From: Escherichia coli
GTDB taxonomy: Bacteria; Pseudomonadota; Gammaproteobacteria; Enterobacterales; Enterobacteriaceae
Direction: 5' to 3' (one strand)
Assembly: GCF_051903065.1 (NCBI RefSeq)
Contig: NZ_CP178442.1
DNA: 37,672 nt
Under the pieces are notes generated by a model. The model saw only the letters and a program-made list of their open reading frames with translations, made no database searches and was not told the DNA's origin. Below are positions 16,040 to 33,824 of this stretch, piece by piece (position 1 is the stretch's first letter; each line of letters starts with the position of its first letter). Position numbers and translations under genes: made by a program.

Positions 16040-16582
16040 ATGAACTCTTTTTTTGAACAATATCACCCTGTCTTTGAAGTTGTCTGCCGTATCCTGGGGA
16101 ACGGCTGGCGCGTGAACAAACTTGATGATTGTTCGTCTCGTATAAAACTGACGTCACCGCAGTTTAAAAATTACTCTGTGCATATTCGGATGGAAAAAGA
16201 CCGGTTTTCTGTTGTGGGGAGTGTGGATAGTCGCTCCTGGCGTAGTCCGCATCATGTTTGCACGTTATCCAGAAAACGGAATCCCGTTGATATTGCAGCC
16301 GATATCGAGCGAAAAATTCTGGTAAATGCTTCGCAGGAGGTGTTACAGGCGATTGAGTATGAGAAACACCAGGTGGAAAAAAAGGACGAAATTCTGATCC
16401 TGAAAGGTATGTTATCGCAACTTGTCCAGCTTGAAAGCTGGTATGGGGCATTGACAGGCTTTAAAGCTGAAAACGGATTGAACGGTAAAGTCACCGAACA
16501 GGGCGACAGTTATGATTTACAGATTCGGGGCTTGAGTATAGATCAACTTGTTAAAATTACAGGGTATTTGAAACAGTTATGA
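16040..16582 (+). CDS. hypothetical protein (180 aa)
   Basis: Intact ORF co-oriented with flanking genes; no recognised motif. Confidence 0.45.
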   Translation: MNSFFEQYHPVFEVVCRILGNGWRVNKLDDCSSRIKLTSPQFKNYSVHIRMEKDRFSVVGSVDSRSWRSPHHVCTLSRKRNPVDIAADIERKILVNASQEVLQAIEYEKHQVEKKDEILILKGMLSQLVQLESWYGALTGFKAENGLNGKVTEQGDSYDLQIRGLSIDQLVKITGYLKQL

Positions 16583-16830
16583 GAAAAAATAAAGGTGATG
16601 TGACTTATTTTCTTGAAAAAGAAGGTGACAATTACAGGCTTACAAAAAGGATAAAAGCCAGAACAAATGTTAAAATCGGGAACAAAACTACGAAAATTAC
16701 ATTGTATGATGCCGTACTGAATGAGAATGAATTACAACATATTGATTTTACGTGTGCCGGATTAAGGGAAGACGATGAGACGCCAGTTAAGAATTTAATT
16801 AAGGAGTTTATGTTAAATGAAACCCGATAA
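16579..16830 (+). CDS. hypothetical protein (83 aa)
   Basis: Start overlaps stop of upstream ORF (ATGA coupling); no recognised motif. Confidence 0.4.
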   Translation: MRKNKGDVTYFLEKEGDNYRLTKRIKARTNVKIGNKTTKITLYDAVLNENELQHIDFTCAGLREDDETPVKNLIKEFMLNETR

Positions 16831-17044
16831 TACACCTGAAAATGTAAAAAAATTACGTTTAAAAGCAGGATTAACACAGAAAGAATGCAGTCATATTTAT
16901 GGTGTTGGGCTAAGAACCTGGCAGAAAAAAGAGGAGGTTAATACTCAAAACAGTCAAAGTCTGTCACTGGTTGAGTTTGAGTTTCTTTTGTTACTTGCAG
17001 GAGAACATCCTGAATACGTGCTCTGCAAAAGGGAGTCAAAATAA
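16817..17044 (+). CDS. small XRE/Cro-type helix-turn-helix protein (75 aa)
   Basis: HTH-like segment LRLKAGLTQKECSHIYGVGLRTWQKKE typical of XRE-family regulators; overlaps upstream ORF. Confidence 0.5.
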   Translation: MKPDNTPENVKKLRLKAGLTQKECSHIYGVGLRTWQKKEEVNTQNSQSLSLVEFEFLLLLAGEHPEYVLCKRESK

Positions 17045-17891: not shown

Positions 17892-18242
17892 ATGAAAACG
17901 TTAAAACAAGCCGCAATGCAGTTTGCATCTGATCTGCGTAATAATCGCTGTTTTAAAGCTGCTTATAATGATGCTCTGTTAGAGCTTGATCGGGAAGATT
18001 TAAACGCCATTGTACAATGCACATTTCTTTTTGAGCCAAAACGAACATTAGCCGAACTTGATAAATTAATTAAAAAGATAGAAGTAGAAGAAGATTATGA
18101 GTTTTGTGTATCCCTTGATAAAGGTAATGGATTACACGAAGTCAGGATATTTAAAAGTGAGCGTGAGGCGTTGGATGCTTATCGCATTTTGACTCTTTAC
18201 GGATACACAGTAACTATAGAAAAGAAGGAGGGTAATGACTGA
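17892..18242 (+). CDS. hypothetical protein (116 aa)
   Basis: Intact ORF; second in-frame Met chosen as start (aagggaaattc upstream); no recognised motif. Confidence 0.4.
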   Translation: MKTLKQAAMQFASDLRNNRCFKAAYNDALLELDREDLNAIVQCTFLFEPKRTLAELDKLIKKIEVEEDYEFCVSLDKGNGLHEVRIFKSEREALDAYRILTLYGYTVTIEKKEGND

Positions 18243-18317
18243 CTATTCAATGTGTGATCAGGTTGTTCCACCAACCTGATCACGTTATCGACAATCAAAA
18301 CTGAATGAGGTTTTTAA

Positions 18318-18455
18318 ATGTCAACGCGGCAGATCGTACAGCTTGCTGATTCCCTTGTCAAAGGCTGGGAAACCAGAATTCCGGCAATGAAATTTAGTGA
18401 ATGGGATCAATTCCGGTGGTGGTTAAACTACTTGCAAGGGTATGAAATGTTTTAA
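18318..18455 (+). CDS. hypothetical small protein (45 aa), below ORF-track size cutoff
   Basis: ATG 18318 preceded by tgagg RBS-like sequence; ORF ends directly before a rho-independent terminator-like hairpin. Confidence 0.3.
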   Translation: MSTRQIVQLADSLVKGWETRIPAMKFSEWDQFRWWLNYLQGYEMF

Positions 18456-18461
18456 ATAAAA

Positions 18462-18490
18462 AAAGGGGCTTTCTGCCCCTTTGTATTTTT
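18462..18490 (+). terminator. rho-independent terminator-like hairpin (aaaggggc-tttct-gccccttt followed by T-run)
   Basis: 8-bp GC-rich stem with 5-nt loop followed by gtatttttt; lies between the small ORF and hicA. Confidence 0.6.
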
Positions 18491-18546
18491 TGACAAAAAT
18501 GCTATGTGTAACTATAATTAGTTGCATATCTATAGGGGATGGATTT

Positions 18547-18795
18547 ATGGGGAAAACAGATAAGCTACTGGCAAAGTTTTTAAACAGTAAAAAAACGTTT
18601 GAATGGGATGAACTGGTCGTTTTGTTTTCCTCTCTGGGGTATGTCAAAAAGGAAATGCAGGGGTCAAGAGTGCGGTTTTTCAATGCTGAAATCAATCACA
18701 CCATATTAATGCATCGTCCACATCCGGAAAGTTATATCAAAGGTGGTACGCTGAAAGCAATTAAACAGAATCTGAAAGAGGCTGGATTATTATGA
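18547..18795 (+). CDS. hicA: HicA-family toxin (mRNA interferase), 82 aa
   Basis: MGKTDKLLAKFL...GYVKKEMQGSRVRFFNAEINHTILMHRPHPESYIKGGTLKAIKQNLKEAGL parallels HicA (GSH..H.....PHP...L..GT...I.KQAGL); overlaps start of a HicB-like gene. Confidence 0.7.
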   Translation: MGKTDKLLAKFLNSKKTFEWDELVVLFSSLGYVKKEMQGSRVRFFNAEINHTILMHRPHPESYIKGGTLKAIKQNLKEAGLL

Positions 18796-19139
18796 AACAT
18801 TTAAAATATAAAGGATATTTAGGCACGGTTGAACCCGATTTTGAAAATAATGTCCTGTATGGAAAACTGGCGTTTATTCGGGACCTGGTAACTTATGAGG
18901 CTTCTACATTAGCTGAACTGGAACAGGAGTTTAAAACATCTGTTGATCTGTATTTACAGTCTTGTGTGGAGGATGGAAAGGAACCTGATACCCCGTTTAA
19001 AGGCGTGTTTAACGTCAGGCTTGATCCAGAACTGCATCGTCGGGTAGCAGAAATGGCGATGGAAGAAGATTTATCGTTGAATGCCTTTGTTAATAAGGCT
19101 CTGGAAAAAGAAGTCAGCAATCATCGCGCAGGGGCTTAA
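18792..19139 (+). CDS. hicB: HicB-family antitoxin with C-terminal RHH DNA-binding domain
   Basis: 115 aa; C-terminal segment GVFNVRLDPELHRRVAEMAMEEDLSLNAFVNKALEKEV is a typical RHH; genetic coupling with hicA. Confidence 0.7.
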   Translation: MKHLKYKGYLGTVEPDFENNVLYGKLAFIRDLVTYEASTLAELEQEFKTSVDLYLQSCVEDGKEPDTPFKGVFNVRLDPELHRRVAEMAMEEDLSLNAFVNKALEKEVSNHRAGA

Positions 19140-19397
19140 TTGCCCTTGTTTTTTTATGCCCTGTAAGGGCATGGGAGGCGCTTTGCGCCGGAAGCCCCGC
19201 AGCGCAGCGAGGACTTAAAAAGCGTTACGGCTTCAGCCGTAACAATTCCCAGCCCTGCCAGGCCTGTTTTTTCTTTCACAAATCTTTCAGCTATACGTTT
19301 GCCAGATGGTCGAAGACGAAAGAACCTTTCAGCAACGAAATCTGGACATATGCCGAGACGATTTTATAGCCATGCACAGTGTCACATATGGTACAAT

Positions 19398-19489
19398 CAA
19401 TGCAGGATAGACAATCATGGTCAAAATGTTAACATTTTATCCATGATTGTCCAAAAACGATGTTTTTGCCTGTGCCTGCCGCAGGCTCT
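19398..19489 (-). promoter_or_regulatory. 92-bp element, inverted copy of 10923..11014; candidate origin of transfer adjacent to the relaxase operon (nic motif TATCCTGC on bottom strand, 19402-19409)
   Basis: Exact reverse-complement identity to 10923-11014; lies 13 bp upstream of the taxA-like gene and is preceded by hairpins (gttacggc-ttca-gccgtaac at about 19216-19235). Confidence 0.55.
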
Positions 19490-19502
19490 GTTGGGGTGAG
19501 TT

Positions 19503-20006
19503 ATGAAGATGATAGCGTTCAGACTTAGTGATGATGAGTTAAAACTTGCAGAGCATAACGCTATATCAAGTGGGTTTACCAGCATCAATACATTTGCCAG
19601 GCATAATGTGCTTAATGTTGATGTTCAACCATCAAATATACCTGTCAGCAATGAATCATCAAAGGCTGTTAAAACCTGTTTATACCCTCATGAAATAGAA
19701 CTTGTTAAACGTAATGCTGCCCTTCACGGCATGAGCATGAGCAGAGAAATTGCTATTCGTGTGCGTCAGTCTTTGTTAAAAAATGAAGTCTGTCTTTACC
19801 CTGATGAAGTTAAGGAACTTAAAAAACTATCAACTGCTGTAGATCGTGTTGGTCGCAACATTCATTTTATCATAAAAGGTGAAAGATTCTGTACGGTTAA
19901 CGATCCTGATTTCAGAAAAGACGTTATTGAAGTGATTGAACTGTGTAAGCAAATTGATTCAAAACTTGAAACGTTAACCAAGAGTGTTGTTAACCGATTT
20001 GGGTGA
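19503..20006 (+). CDS. taxA: relaxosome accessory protein (TaxA-like), RHH-type DNA-binding
   Basis: 167 aa; N-terminal RHH-like MKMIAFRLSDDELKLAEHNAISSGF and a second similar segment; immediately upstream of relaxase gene. Confidence 0.6.
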   Translation: MKMIAFRLSDDELKLAEHNAISSGFTSINTFARHNVLNVDVQPSNIPVSNESSKAVKTCLYPHEIELVKRNAALHGMSMSREIAIRVRQSLLKNEVCLYPDEVKELKKLSTAVDRVGRNIHFIIKGERFCTVNDPDFRKDVIEVIELCKQIDSKLETLTKSVVNRFG

Positions 20007-20009
20007 TTT

Positions 20010-21239
20010 ATGGGTGTGTATGTAGAACAGGAATACCGTATTAAACGCGCTAAAGGGACAGGGCGTGATCCGAAATCTCCTAAGTTATCAGGAAGACATA
20101 TACATGCCAGTAAATCGGCTTTTAATCATAAAGTCAGACATGGCGCAGACAAGAAAGCATATACCTGGACGCCAACAAAAGAAGTCACTTTTAAAATCAC
20201 TGGTTCAGGGAAAACAGCCGCAGGTATCAAAAACGGTATTGATTACATTACCCGTAATGGTGAACTTGAGGCTTACTGTTATGATGGAAAAGGTTCAGAG
20301 CAAACAGGGAAAGGAGAAGACTTTAACAGGGAGTTTACTTCAACTTTATCTAAAGGAAATGATTACTCCAGGACATATCGTGGAGAAAACATCGATCATG
20401 TGAAAAACATGGTCTTTTCACCACCACCAGAAGCTGGAGTAAGCAGGGAAGACGCTCTGAAAGCTACGGTAGAATTTCTTAAAGAGACTTATCCAAACCA
20501 TGCTTTCGTTGCCGTATACCATGATGATAAAGAAGATCATCCTCATGTACATGTTAATATTAAACTTCGTGATGAAGAAACAGGAAGAAGATTAAGACTT
20601 ACTAAATCTGAAACCAGGAAGTTCAGAAACGGTTTTCATAGAAAACTGAAAGGTATGGGATATGATGTTACCGCTACCTGGAAAAAAGATCCCGAACGTA
20701 AACGGGAGATTGAGCGATTACAGGCTGAAAATCCGAAAAGACTCCGGAATGTTTACAAGGTGGTGGATTTTGGGGAGACTTCATATCAGAATAAGGCAGG
20801 GGAAAAACGAACACCTTTCCTCACTTATGAAACTTTAAAAGGTGGAAAACAGGTTACGATTTGGGGTAAAGACCTGAAAAATCATTTCGAGTCTGAAAAG
20901 CTCCAGCCAGGAACGCTTATCAAAGTAAAAAAACTGGCTCCTACGCTTGTACGTAGTCCAATGTTTAATGATGATGGAACTGTTGCAGGCTACAGGGAAA
21001 CGCATCGCAATAACTGGCAGATTGAAAATATTGCCCTTGAGCGGAACAGAGAACGTCAGGTTCATGAGCGTGAAACCAGGCAGCCGGAAGAGAGCGACGT
21101 TAAAAAGCAGCTATCCAGAAAACATGAGCAAGGTCACAATATCGGGTTTGCTCTTGAACACGGGTTTACAAAGGATTCAGAAGAACATAAAAAACTAAGA
21201 ATACAGCAAGAGAGGAACTGGAAAGGCCTGGGATTTTAA
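20010..21239 (+). CDS. taxC: conjugative relaxase, MOBP family (TaxC-like)
   Basis: 409 aa; histidine-triad metal-binding motif HDDKEDHPHVHVNI typical of MOBP relaxases; N-terminal region with candidate catalytic Tyr. Confidence 0.75.
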   Translation: MGVYVEQEYRIKRAKGTGRDPKSPKLSGRHIHASKSAFNHKVRHGADKKAYTWTPTKEVTFKITGSGKTAAGIKNGIDYITRNGELEAYCYDGKGSEQTGKGEDFNREFTSTLSKGNDYSRTYRGENIDHVKNMVFSPPPEAGVSREDALKATVEFLKETYPNHAFVAVYHDDKEDHPHVHVNIKLRDEETGRRLRLTKSETRKFRNGFHRKLKGMGYDVTATWKKDPERKREIERLQAENPKRLRNVYKVVDFGETSYQNKAGEKRTPFLTYETLKGGKQVTIWGKDLKNHFESEKLQPGTLIKVKKLAPTLVRSPMFNDDGTVAGYRETHRNNWQIENIALERNRERQVHERETRQPEESDVKKQLSRKHEQGHNIGFALEHGFTKDSEEHKKLRIQQERNWKGLGF

Positions 21240-31967: not shown

Positions 31968-33816
31968 TAAGTCGCAATCTGTTTTTATATTCGCTGTTAT
32001 GCTTGTTGCGGCATGGTTTGCAGGTTCATTTATTTTCTTTGTGCTTTACTTCAGCCAGATAAAGAATCTGAAACCATTGAAGGCTGTGTTCAGATCCATT
32101 GATGCGTACAGGATGGATATTTTTACAGACAGCCTTACTTTATCTGTTGTGACTACGGATATCAGAATTTTAGCCTTTGTTGCACTTGGAGCAGGATTTG
32201 TCGTGTCTCTTATCATCCCTGTTGCGGCGTTGATAAAACTGAACGAGAAGAAAGAAAATATTTTCGGTGATGCGCGATTTGCAACAATTAATGATATTCG
32301 TGAGTCTAACAGTTTCACGCTTGACGGTGACGAAAAAGACGGGATTATCGTTGGTATAAAAGACAAGAAAATAATACGCTATGTGGGAGCAGCATTCAGT
32401 GCTATGGGAGCCGGAACAAGGGCTGGTAAAGGTGCTGGTATAGTCATCACTAATCTTATGAAGTACTGGTGGAGTGTTATTATTCTCGATCCAAAAAGGG
32501 AGTGTTTTAATATCACCAGTCTTATCAGGAAGGTGATTTTAGGTCATGAGGTTTATAAATTTGATCCCTTTAGTCCGGTAACGCACCGCTTTAACCCTTT
32601 GTATTATGTCAGCATGGGAACGAGTGAAGGTTTTAACCAGCTTGAAAATCTTTCGTTGATTATTTACCCCTATAAGACAGATGGTGCGGATGCTGGTAGC
32701 TATCTTAATAAGACGGCGGGTGGTGTTTTTAAATCTTATGCTGTCGCTTTATGGTTTATGATTAAGAATGATAAGGCTGGACTAAAAACGCTTGATATTG
32801 AGCCTGTCTTCTCAATGTCTAAAATTAATCAGCTTTTTGAGCGTGCAGAACCCGAACATCTTCTTTCATTCATGAATGATATTCGTTCAGAATTAAGGGG
32901 GAAAGACAAAACGCTTGCTGATATTGGTGTAGCTGGCCTTAAGGCATTCATTGAGATGGAGGATAAAACAAAAGCACAACTCAAAAGCAACTTTCTTAAT
33001 GGATTATCACCGTTTGCTAACCCCAATGTGGCAAATGCTACTGATGGAAATGATTTTGATTTGCGGCAGGTGCGGAAAAAGCGGATGACAATTTATTTCT
33101 GTATTTCTGGTGATAATGCCAGGTTGGCTGAAAAAATAACAAATATTTTCTTTCAGCTTGCTATACAGGTGAATCTTGAAAAGATGCCAACGGATGATCC
33201 GGAAATAAAGCATGACTGCCTTTTTCTACTGGATGAATTCCCGTCAATTGGTGCTGTAGATTACATCAAGAGTAAATCTGGTCTCATTGCTGGTTACAAG
33301 CTGAAATTGTTGATTGTTTACCAGGTCGGCTCTCAGCTTGAGGAAATCTACAGTTATGCAGGCAGTAAAACATTACTGGCAAGTGCACCCTGCAAAATTG
33401 TTTATTCCGCTTCTGATGTTAAAGATGCGCGGGAGTTATCAGAAGCGATGGGGACACGAACAGTAACTATCGGTTCGAAAAGCAAAAGTCGTAGTCGTGG
33501 AGGAACATCGAGATCTGAATCAGAAAGCCTTATTGAGCGTCCACTGGTAACAACAAATGAACTACTTACACTGAAATTTAGTGAAGAAATCCTGGCAATG
33601 AAGGGAGAAAACCCGATTCGTTGTGAAAAGGCATTCTACTATCTCAATGAGTATTTCTTTGGTGACTTTGTGAAGGTTGCTCCGGAACTTGCAAACATTT
33701 TCCCCAGGAAGAAAGGAAAGCTGGTTATGCCTCCACAGAAAGTATTTGAAAATGAAATCGTCGCAAAAGGGTATCTGGCAGTAAAAGATGTTCCTGATCT
33801 CGATAAAGCGGCATAA
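31954..33816 (+). CDS. taxB: VirD4-like type IV coupling protein
   Basis: 620 aa; two N-terminal TM helices, Walker A-like GAGTRAGKGAG, Walker B LLDEFPSIG; follows virB11 homologue. Confidence 0.85.
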   Translation: MKTFNKSQSVFIFAVMLVAAWFAGSFIFFVLYFSQIKNLKPLKAVFRSIDAYRMDIFTDSLTLSVVTTDIRILAFVALGAGFVVSLIIPVAALIKLNEKKENIFGDARFATINDIRESNSFTLDGDEKDGIIVGIKDKKIIRYVGAAFSAMGAGTRAGKGAGIVITNLMKYWWSVIILDPKRECFNITSLIRKVILGHEVYKFDPFSPVTHRFNPLYYVSMGTSEGFNQLENLSLIIYPYKTDGADAGSYLNKTAGGVFKSYAVALWFMIKNDKAGLKTLDIEPVFSMSKINQLFERAEPEHLLSFMNDIRSELRGKDKTLADIGVAGLKAFIEMEDKTKAQLKSNFLNGLSPFANPNVANATDGNDFDLRQVRKKRMTIYFCISGDNARLAEKITNIFFQLAIQVNLEKMPTDDPEIKHDCLFLLDEFPSIGAVDYIKSKSGLIAGYKLKLLIVYQVGSQLEEIYSYAGSKTLLASAPCKIVYSASDVKDARELSEAMGTRTVTIGSKSKSRSRGGTSRSESESLIERPLVTTNELLTLKFSEEILAMKGENPIRCEKAFYYLNEYFFGDFVKVAPELANIFPRKKGKLVMPPQKVFENEIVAKGYLAVKDVPDLDKAA

Positions 33817-33824
33817 AGGAGAAC

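What the first reader, a model, noticed from the sequence alone, without database searches (positions are those of the whole stretch)
18547..19139. hicAB toxin-antitoxin module adjacent to the candidate oriT/relaxase region
A HicA-like toxin gene (toxin first, as is typical for hicAB) overlaps a HicB-like antitoxin with a C-terminal RHH. Together with stbDE this gives the plasmid two independent addiction systems, which would favour retention of the cfr island without antibiotic selection.
Basis: partly seen in the sequence, partly recalled or inferred. Interest (0 to 1): 0.35.

Follow-up and report, generated by a model that had tools for sequence, protein, structure and literature searches.

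The report
Known hicAB toxin-antitoxin of IncX4 plasmids
This is a real, self-contained hicA-hicB toxin-antitoxin gene pair on a well-known IncX4 resistance plasmid, but it is already annotated and its exact proteins were tested in the laboratory, where they helped plasmid retention only weakly.

Summary
hicA (18547-18795, 82 aa) overlaps hicB (18792-19139, 115 aa) by 4 nt. Both pass Pfam's curated thresholds, and both AlphaFold models find solved HicA and HicB structures as best matches. The window is a pSD11-type IncX4 cfr plasmid. RefSeq already names both genes. The identical proteins (WP_000520549.1, WP_000681613.1) sit on p14EC007a, where Lin et al. 2025 showed HicA is toxic and HicB neutralises it. 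That work gave only a 3:1 advantage after 80 generations. A maintenance role was also discarded for IncX4 pJIE143, according to a 2024 review. The "second addiction system that retains cfr" reading is therefore only partly supported. stbDE and the adjacent taxA/taxC relaxase genes are confirmed. I add three points. The cassette lies between two terminators. An 18-bp palindrome over the -10 of its perfect-consensus promoter is conserved in distant genera and is a likely HicB operator. This HicA also belongs to a large 82-aa clade in which arginine (R41) replaces the canonical catalytic histidine, with near-invariant H56 and invariant H59 nearby. Novelty: already known. Interest is low.

The parts
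18462..18482 (.). Bidirectional intrinsic-terminator-like hairpin (AAAGGGGC-TTTCT-GCCCCTTT, A run before and T run after) that insulates the cassette from the upstream genes
   Evidence: found on both strands; inverted repeat I1
18490..18518 (+). hicA promoter, perfect sigma-70 consensus TTGACA-17 nt-TATAAT (12 of 12)
   Evidence: the same perfect PhicA of an IncX4 plasmid was reported and used as a strong promoter in PMC11537010
18508..18525 (.). 18-bp palindrome GTAACTA-TAAT-TAGTTGC overlapping the -10 hexamer; candidate HicB (RHH) operator
   Evidence: Single copy in the window. The core AACTATAATTAG is identical upstream of hicA in the Avibacterium, Nitrincola and Thiotrichales loci, and GCGACTATAATTAGTTGC in Endozoicomonas, while the flanks diverge. 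Binding is inferred, not shown.
18534..18539 (+). Shine-Dalgarno-like AGGGGA, 7 nt before the hicA ATG
   Evidence: read from the sequence
18547..18795 (+). hicA, 82-aa HicA-family toxin (long clade: extra N-terminal helix plus the dsRBD-like alpha-beta-beta-beta-alpha core; G39-S40-R41 and H56-R-P-H59-P motifs)
   Evidence: RefSeq WP_000520549.1, the same accession as the p14EC007a HicA shown to be toxic
18792..19139 (+). hicB, 115-aa HicB antitoxin: N-terminal partial RNase H-like domain (strands 4-37, helix 40-60) and C-terminal RHH (residues ~72-114)
   Evidence: RefSeq WP_000681613.1; 62% identical to Haemophilus influenzae HicB Q9LA69
19128..19149 (+). Terminator-like hairpin plus T7 run spanning the hicB stop codon; end of the operon
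   Evidence: ParE_toxin 53.7 bits; TIGR02385 RelE_StbE 39.4 bits, cut-off 27.9; RefSeq annotation
19503..21239 (+). taxA/ddp1 (19503-20006) and taxC relaxase (20010-21239), the neighbouring transfer genes; the 19140-19502 spacer holds inverted repeats (19224-19243; 19410-19451) and is the plausible oriT region
   Evidence: oriT not tested

Best explanation
This is an autonomous, translationally coupled type II toxin-antitoxin cassette of the hicAB family. In Gerdes's scheme it is Class 4 (hicA first, HicB with a C-terminal RHH). In Lin et al.'s scheme it is the 'overlapping' hicA-O-B subfamily typical of IncX4 plasmids. One transcript starts at a perfect-consensus sigma-70 promoter and ends at the terminator over the hicB stop codon. 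HicA (82 aa, dsRBD-like fold) arrests growth, presumably by cleaving RNA as characterised HicA proteins do. HicB binds and masks HicA through its N-terminal partial RNase H-like domain. Its dimerised RHH most likely represses the promoter by binding the 18-bp palindrome over the -10 hexamer. There is no internal terminator and the genes overlap, so toxin and antitoxin mRNA are made in similar amounts. The module is therefore a weak addiction or competition device. Shown: the genes, folds, promoter, terminators and conserved palindrome (here); toxicity of HicA, neutralisation by HicB, equal mRNA levels and the weak competition effect (published, on identical proteins). Inferred: RNase activity, operator binding and complex architecture.
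For: Pfam scores above the curated cut-offs. Fold matches to solved HicA and HicB. RefSeq annotation in the 100%-identical record pSD11 NZ_KM212169.1. Protein accessions identical to p14EC007a, with only 2 synonymous changes in hicA and 1 change in the promoter spacer. Lin et al. 2025: p14EC007a HicA is toxic, HicB fully neutralises it, hicA and hicB mRNA levels are similar, and the competition advantage is 3:1 at G80. Perfect promoter and flanking terminators. No stable RNA structure at the hicA/hicB junction (z=0.42). The palindrome over -10 is conserved across genera. The architecture is conserved in chromosomal homologues. The 1.1-kb region matches 1026 PLSDB plasmid records, 391 of them over at least 80% of its length; 985 of the 1026 are predicted conjugative.
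Against: The canonical catalytic histidine of HicA (BpsHicA H24, SpHicA H36) aligns with Arg41 here, so the RNase mechanism cannot simply be transferred. No RNase assay exists for this clade in the literature I could read. Operator binding is untested. Evidence on plasmid maintenance is mixed: discarded for pJIE143, weak in p14EC007a, but HicB and RelB supplied together allowed IncX4 curing.
Confidence: 0.93

Rival explanations
1. An effective post-segregational-killing (addiction) module that, together with stbDE, materially stabilises the plasmid and so retains cfr without selection.
For: HicA is toxic and HicB is its antidote. IncX4 res::bgaB cells gave plasmid-free colonies (~40%) only after HicB and RelB were supplied in trans. 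hicAB is found across many IncX4-type conjugative plasmids and the review calls it highly common in the IncX4 group.
Against: A maintenance role was discarded for pJIE143 HicAB, and that hicAB could be deleted directly in one step. p14EC007a gained only 3:1 over its deletion mutant at G80. No stability data exist for pSD11 itself. The curing experiment does not separate HicB from RelB.
Confidence: 0.25
2. Its main role is anti-phage abortive infection or defence against other mobile elements rather than plasmid maintenance, as Gerdes 2024 proposed for HicA domains in general.
For: Gerdes 2024 argues that HicA modules are often in defence islands. The weak maintenance phenotype leaves room for another selected function. 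Close homologues sit in chromosomes next to mobile-element and nucleotidyltransferase TA genes.
Against: No PADLOC defence-system model matches either protein. No phage data exist for this clade. Here the cassette sits in a plasmid backbone between transfer and accessory genes, not in a defence island.
Confidence: 0.15
3. HicA here is a catalytically degenerate or mechanistically different toxin, because Arg replaces the catalytic His. Toxicity would come from RNA or ribosome binding, or from a rebuilt active site using H56/H59.
For: R41 aligns with the essential His of two solved HicAs. In 119 clade representatives position 41 is R in 104 and never H, H56 is present in 117 and H59 in 119. In the model R41 starts strand 41-46 and H56 ends strand 51-56 of the same hairpin, so they are inferred cross-strand neighbours. 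The IncI2 HicA-T keeps the canonical SSH.
Against: The protein is still toxic and is neutralised by HicB, so it is not dead. The alignment rests on weak profile scores (E about 0.005). No model coordinates were available to measure distances. The PHP histidine was dispensable in gonococcal HicA (H40A).
Confidence: 0.35

Closest known systems
HicA-O-B of IncX4 plasmid p14EC007a (Lin et al., Nucleic Acids Res 2025, PMC11878559) and, per that paper, the highly similar HicAB of pJIE143 (Bustamante and Iredell 2019)
   Same: The p14EC007a proteins are identical (same WP accessions). It has the same overlapping gene arrangement, promoter and terminator, with 3 nucleotide differences across the promoter and both genes plus a 2-nt shorter T run in the terminator. 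The backbone position upstream of taxA/taxC is also the same.
   Different: Only the cargo differs: cfr between IS26 copies here versus mcr-1 or blaCTX-M-15 there. p14EC007a also lacks an annotated stbDE. The pJIE143 sequence could not be fetched for direct comparison.
HicA-T-B of IncI2 plasmid pHNSHP45 (p45)
   Same: Plasmid-borne hicAB with the toxin gene first, and an experimentally confirmed TA pair.
   Different: It has a short 60-aa HicA with the canonical SSH histidine and a 145-aa HicB with no detectable similarity. A 24-bp intergenic spacer carries an internal terminator that raises the toxin:antitoxin ratio and gives strong plasmid competition. The window has a 4-nt overlap, no junction structure and a weak effect.
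Burkholderia pseudomallei HicAB (PDB 6G26, 4C26) and Streptococcus pneumoniae HicAB (5YRZ): structurally solved HicAB pairs whose HicB has an RHH
   Same: The HicA dsRBD-like fold and the HicB partial RNase H-like fold plus RHH are the best fold matches. The G-S and P-H-P motifs are shared.
   Different: About 22-24% identity for HicA and 9% for HicB. The window HicA has an extra N-terminal helix and strand (residues 3-19) and Arg in place of the catalytic His.
Haemophilus influenzae HicB (Q9LA69); to my knowledge, not checked here, hicAB was named after this species' hif-contiguous locus
   Same: HicB is 62% identical over 94% of its length (P0083).
   Different: Chromosomal rather than plasmid-borne. 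Its hicA partner could not be retrieved here.

Membership tests
HicA toxin family (Pfam PF07927) | Profile match above the curated threshold | tested here: met
   45.5 bits against a cut-off of 27, covering profile positions 1-58 of 58
HicA toxin family (Pfam PF07927) | [quoted passage not shown] | tested here: met
   AF2 model pLDDT 95.5 with H20-29, E33-36, E41-46, E51-56, H66-78. Foldseek top hits are 1WHZ, 6G26_E/F and 4C26, probability 0.84-1.00.
HicA toxin family (Pfam PF07927) | Conserved Gly and catalytic His at the start of strand beta2 (BpsHicA G22/H24, YpHicA3 G26/H28, SpHicA H36) | tested here: not met
   The Gly is present (G39) but the His position is Arg41. In 119 clade representatives position 41 is R in 104 and never H. 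H56 (117 of 119) and H59 (119 of 119) may substitute; this is untested.
HicA toxin family (Pfam PF07927) | Toxic on expression and neutralised by the cognate HicB | not testable with these tools
   Published for the identical protein of p14EC007a (PMC11878559 Fig. 5D; identity of accessions)
HicA toxin family (Pfam PF07927) | Ribosome-independent RNase activity | not testable with these tools
   I found no assay for this clade in the papers I could read
HicB antitoxin, RHH type (Gerdes Class 4 hicAB) | HicB profile match above the curated threshold | tested here: met
   PF05534, 71 bits against a cut-off of 21
HicB antitoxin, RHH type (Gerdes Class 4 hicAB) | N-terminal partial RNase H-like fold | tested here: met
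   Model strands 4-37 plus helix 40-60. Foldseek hits are 6G26_A/B, 2DSY and 6G1C, probability 0.85-1.00.
HicB antitoxin, RHH type (Gerdes Class 4 hicAB) | C-terminal ribbon-helix-helix DNA-binding domain | tested here: met
   Two helices at 79-91 and 96-114 after an extended segment. Weak RHH profile hits: Antitox_RHH, RHH_10, RHH_1. PDB CopG-family RHH 9KKD aligns with residues 73-112, E=0.053. Full-length alignment to the RHH-type BpsHicB.
HicB antitoxin, RHH type (Gerdes Class 4 hicAB) | hicA upstream of hicB in one operon | tested here: met
   4-nt overlap, a single promoter and a single terminator
HicB antitoxin, RHH type (Gerdes Class 4 hicAB) | Autorepression through a palindromic operator in the promoter | tested here: inconclusive
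   An 18-bp palindrome over the -10 is conserved across genera. Binding and repression are not testable here.
hicA-O-B subfamily (Lin et al. 2025) | Overlapping ORFs, no internal intrinsic terminator, IncX4 backbone | tested here: met
   ATGA overlap. No terminator-like site inside 18547-19127. Junction folding z=0.42. IncX4 typing.
Plasmid addiction (post-segregational killing) module | Measurable stabilisation of the plasmid, or killing of plasmid-free segregants | not testable with these tools
   The literature is mixed and mostly negative for this subfamily

The most novel reading that the evidence does not exclude
The IncX4 HicA represents a large, uncharacterised clade of about 82-aa HicA toxins: 441 50%-identity clusters at E<=1e-10 and 1947 at E<=1e-3. 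In this clade the canonical catalytic histidine has been replaced by arginine, and a near-invariant histidine (H56) sits on the neighbouring strand next to the invariant P-H59-P. The active site would therefore be rebuilt, or the toxin would act by a different chemistry or target than characterised HicA RNases. Together with the missing internal terminator, this could help explain why hicA-O-B is a much weaker competition module than the IncI2 hicA-T-B.
Probability: 0.3. Interest if true: 0.35.

Novelty: already known. Interest (0 to 1): 0.12.

Why it matters
IncX4 plasmids are major vehicles of mcr-1, cfr and ESBL genes, and knowing what keeps them in bacterial populations matters for resistance control. 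For this locus the answer is largely in hand. It is a bona fide TA pair, but published tests on the same proteins show that it contributes little to persistence. It should therefore not be counted as a strong reason for cfr retention. Two small open points remain: the unusual active-site make-up of this HicA clade, and the conserved operator.

Tried and rejected
- **Single-sequence PDB searches.** The HicA query found nothing. The HicB query gave only a marginal CopG RHH hit. The 10-sequence profile A1 still ranked HicA structures at E about 1; only the 124-sequence profile A3 brought them to the top.
- **Records and papers not held.** These were pJIE143 JN194214, Bustamante and Iredell 2019, the pSD11 paper PMC4291432 and the supplements of Lin et al.. 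pJIE143 identity and the original stability data are therefore cited second-hand.
- **H. influenzae HicB.** The P0083 sequence is not in the contig index, so that species' hicA could not be inspected.
- **Longer 104-aa HicA from TTG 18481.** Rejected. It would start upstream of the promoter, adds nothing to the Pfam match, and homologues conserve the 82-aa form.
- **Antisense ORFs.** 18423-18695(-) and 18893-19120(-) have no Pfam match.
- **Rfam.** Nothing near the gathering scores in 18200-19600.
- **PADLOC defence models.** No hit for either protein.
- **Internal terminator as in IncI2 hicA-T-B.** Absent.
- **Model coordinates.** They are not exposed to the sandbox, so R41-H56-H59 distances could not be measured.

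Full report
**1. What is in the sequence**

An 82-codon ORF runs from ATG 18547 to TGA 18795, and a 115-codon ORF runs from ATG 18792 to TAA 19139. Both are on the + strand and share the four bases ATGA.
- An AGGGGA Shine-Dalgarno-like motif lies 7 nt before the first ATG.
- A perfect sigma-70 consensus promoter, TTGACA-17 nt-TATAAT, lies at 18490-18518 (12 of 12 matches).
- Just before the promoter is a bidirectional terminator-like hairpin at 18462-18482. A second hairpin with a T7 run (19128-19149) spans the hicB stop codon.
- No terminator-like site lies between the two genes, and the junction RNA folds no better than shuffled sequence (z=0.42).
- The unit is therefore a compact, insulated cassette: promoter, hicA, hicB, terminator.

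**2. Identity of the proteins**

- The first protein matches Pfam HicA_toxin (E=8.4e-12, 45.5 bits, cut-off 27). The second matches Pfam HicB (E=7.6e-20, 71 bits, cut-off 21) and has weak ribbon-helix-helix (RHH) hits over its C-terminus.
- An AlphaFold2 model of HicA, built on 124 homologues, has mean pLDDT 95.5. It shows an N-terminal helix and short strand followed by the alpha-beta-beta-beta-alpha core. Its best PDB fold matches are TTHA1913 (1WHZ) and Burkholderia pseudomallei HicA (6G26_E/F, 4C26).
- The HicB model (pLDDT 87.1) has a five-stranded N-terminal domain with one long helix, then two C-terminal helices. It best matches B. pseudomallei HicB over its full length (6G26_A/B), plus TTHA0281 and the HicB N-terminal domain 6G1C.
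- HicB is 62% identical to Haemophilus influenzae HicB.
- In Gerdes's 14-class scheme this is Class 4: hicAB with an RHH HicB.
- The antisense ORFs have no family match. No Rfam family approaches its gathering score here. No PADLOC defence model matches either protein.

**3. Where the window comes from and what is already known**

- The 1.1-kb region is 100% identical to 15 listed IncX4-type E. coli plasmids. One is pSD11 (NZ_KM212169.1, 37,672 bp, swine, China), the same length as the window.
- RefSeq annotates the two genes there as HicA family toxin WP_000520549.1 and HicB family antitoxin WP_000681613.1. They lie next to ddp1/taxA and taxC, and the record also carries cfr between two IS26 copies and a RelE/ParE pair.
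- In all, 1026 PLSDB records match the region. Of these, 391 cover at least 80% of it, and 985 are predicted conjugative.
- The mcr-1 IncX4 plasmid p14EC007a (NZ_CP024132.1) carries the same two protein accessions. At the DNA level it differs by two synonymous changes in hicA, one base in the promoter spacer and the length of the terminator T run.
- That plasmid's module was tested by Lin et al. (Nucleic Acids Res 2025, PMC11878559):
  - HicA is toxic in E. coli K-12 and HicB neutralises it completely.
  - hicA and hicB mRNA levels are similar.
  - The plasmid gains only a 3:1 advantage over its hicAB deletion after 80 generations.
  - The authors named this overlapping, terminator-less subfamily hicA-O-B and found it predominant on IncX4 plasmids.
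- A 2024 review states that a maintenance role was discarded for the IncX4 pJIE143 HicAB (Bustamante and Iredell 2019).
- The perfect hicA promoter has also been reported and exploited (PMC11537010).
- In that same study, plasmid-free segregants of an IncX4 res mutant appeared only when HicB and RelB were supplied in trans. This is weak, non-separable support for post-segregational killing. The authors found a related curing variant not reproducible.

**4. How it most likely works**

- *Shown here:* gene order, overlap, promoter, terminators and folds.
- *Shown in the literature for identical proteins:* toxicity, neutralisation and balanced transcript levels.
- *Inferred from characterised HicAB systems (PMC11594946):* HicB's N-terminal domain covers HicA's active surface, and the RHH dimer represses the promoter.
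- For the repression step I found comparative support. The 18-bp palindrome GTAACTA-TAAT-TAGTTGC (18508-18525) overlaps the -10 hexamer and occurs once in the window.
- Its core AACTATAATTAG is identical upstream of hicA in the Avibacterium, Nitrincola and Thiotrichales loci. Endozoicomonas has GCGACTATAATTAGTTGC. The surrounding sequence in all of these is unrelated.
- Most of those loci keep the same 82-aa HicA and the 4-nt overlap with a 113-117-aa HicB.

**5. One feature that is not textbook**

- Profile alignment to solved HicAs places Arg41 of this protein at the position of the essential catalytic histidine: H24 in B. pseudomallei (alanine in the 4C26 mutant) and H36 in S. pneumoniae. 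The preceding G-S and the later P-H-P motifs align as well.
- An exhaustive profile search found 1947 50%-identity clusters at E<=1e-3 and 441 at E<=1e-10.
- Among 119 full-length representatives (including the query), position 41 is Arg in 104 and never His. H56 is present in 117 and H59 in all 119.
- In the model R41 opens strand 41-46 and H56 closes strand 51-56 of the same hairpin. They are therefore inferred cross-strand neighbours. I could not measure this because model coordinates are not exposed.
- The IncI2 HicA-T of pHNSHP45 is a 60-aa protein that keeps the canonical S-S-H. It is barely alignable to the window HicA, and the two HicB proteins show no detectable similarity.
- The identical window protein is toxic, so Arg41 does not inactivate it. 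Whether the active site is rebuilt around H56/H59, or the mechanism differs, is open. I found no discussion of this in the papers I could read.

**6.

- stbD (13884-14135) and stbE (14125-14406) are present. StbE passes the ParE_toxin and RelE_StbE thresholds.
- The relaxase region is adjacent. The 364-bp spacer to taxA contains inverted repeats, but oriT was not tested.
- The claim that two TA systems would favour cfr retention is plausible in principle. For hicAB, however, direct tests on the same module contradict it or at best support it weakly.

**7. Verdict**

- The family assignment is confirmed, with one defining residue (the catalytic histidine) not met.
- The addiction interpretation is only partly supported.
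- The locus is already annotated and experimentally characterised, so it is not novel and interest is low.
- The Arg-for-His clade signature and the conserved operator are the only additions worth a follow-up.

Noticed in passing
window 14424-14780 (+): A 118-aa ORF starts 18 nt after the stbE stop codon. It matches the HigA-like 'addiction module antidote protein' family: Pfam dnstrm_HI1420 at 41.3 bits (cut-off 27), and TIGR02684 at 44.5 bits (below its cut-off of 53.7). RefSeq calls it hypothetical. It has no obvious cognate Gp49/HigB-type toxin, so stbD-stbE-higA-like may form a three-gene unit, or this may be an orphan antitoxin.
   Followed up: partly
window 16579-17044 (+): This is a two-gene, 14-nt-overlapping pair. 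An 83-aa ORF with no family match is followed by a 75-aa Xre/MqsA-C-terminal-like HTH protein (Pfam MqsA_antitoxin 25.3 bits and Xre-like-HTH 23.4 bits, both below cut-off). The layout is TA-like. pHNSHP45 has a similar pair (10239-10740). It could be the 'TsxAB' system described for IncX4 plasmids, but that paper was not available.
   Followed up: partly
L004 1364-1504 and L008 ~750-1000: In the Avibacterium CP173230.1 locus only a 46-aa remnant is called upstream of an intact hicB, because the hicA start codon has mutated; an IS1595 transposase gene lies further upstream. In Photorhabdus stackebrandtii the hicA frame is riddled with stop codons. These are orphan HicB antitoxins left after toxin decay.
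   Followed up: no
L003 (p14EC007a) versus the window: p14EC007a has no annotated stbDE pair and carries a partial duplication of the J-domain/HTH gene block (33341-34958, frameshifted copies). The two-TA complement is therefore not constant among IncX4 plasmids.
   Followed up: no
window 19410-19451: A 21-nt perfect-spacing inverted repeat (GACAATCATGGTCAAAATGTT / AACATTTTATCCATGATTGTC, 90% complementary, no gap) lies about 50 bp upstream of taxA. Promoter-like sites lie on both strands across it. It is a candidate TaxA/relaxosome or regulatory site in the presumed oriT region.
   Followed up: no
protein P0075 (ENA, 182 aa): A single metagenomic protein carries both the HicA_toxin and HicB Pfam domains and is 63% identical to the window HicB. 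It is either a natural HicA-HicB fusion (Gerdes Class 11-like) or a frameshift at the ATGA overlap.
   Followed up: no
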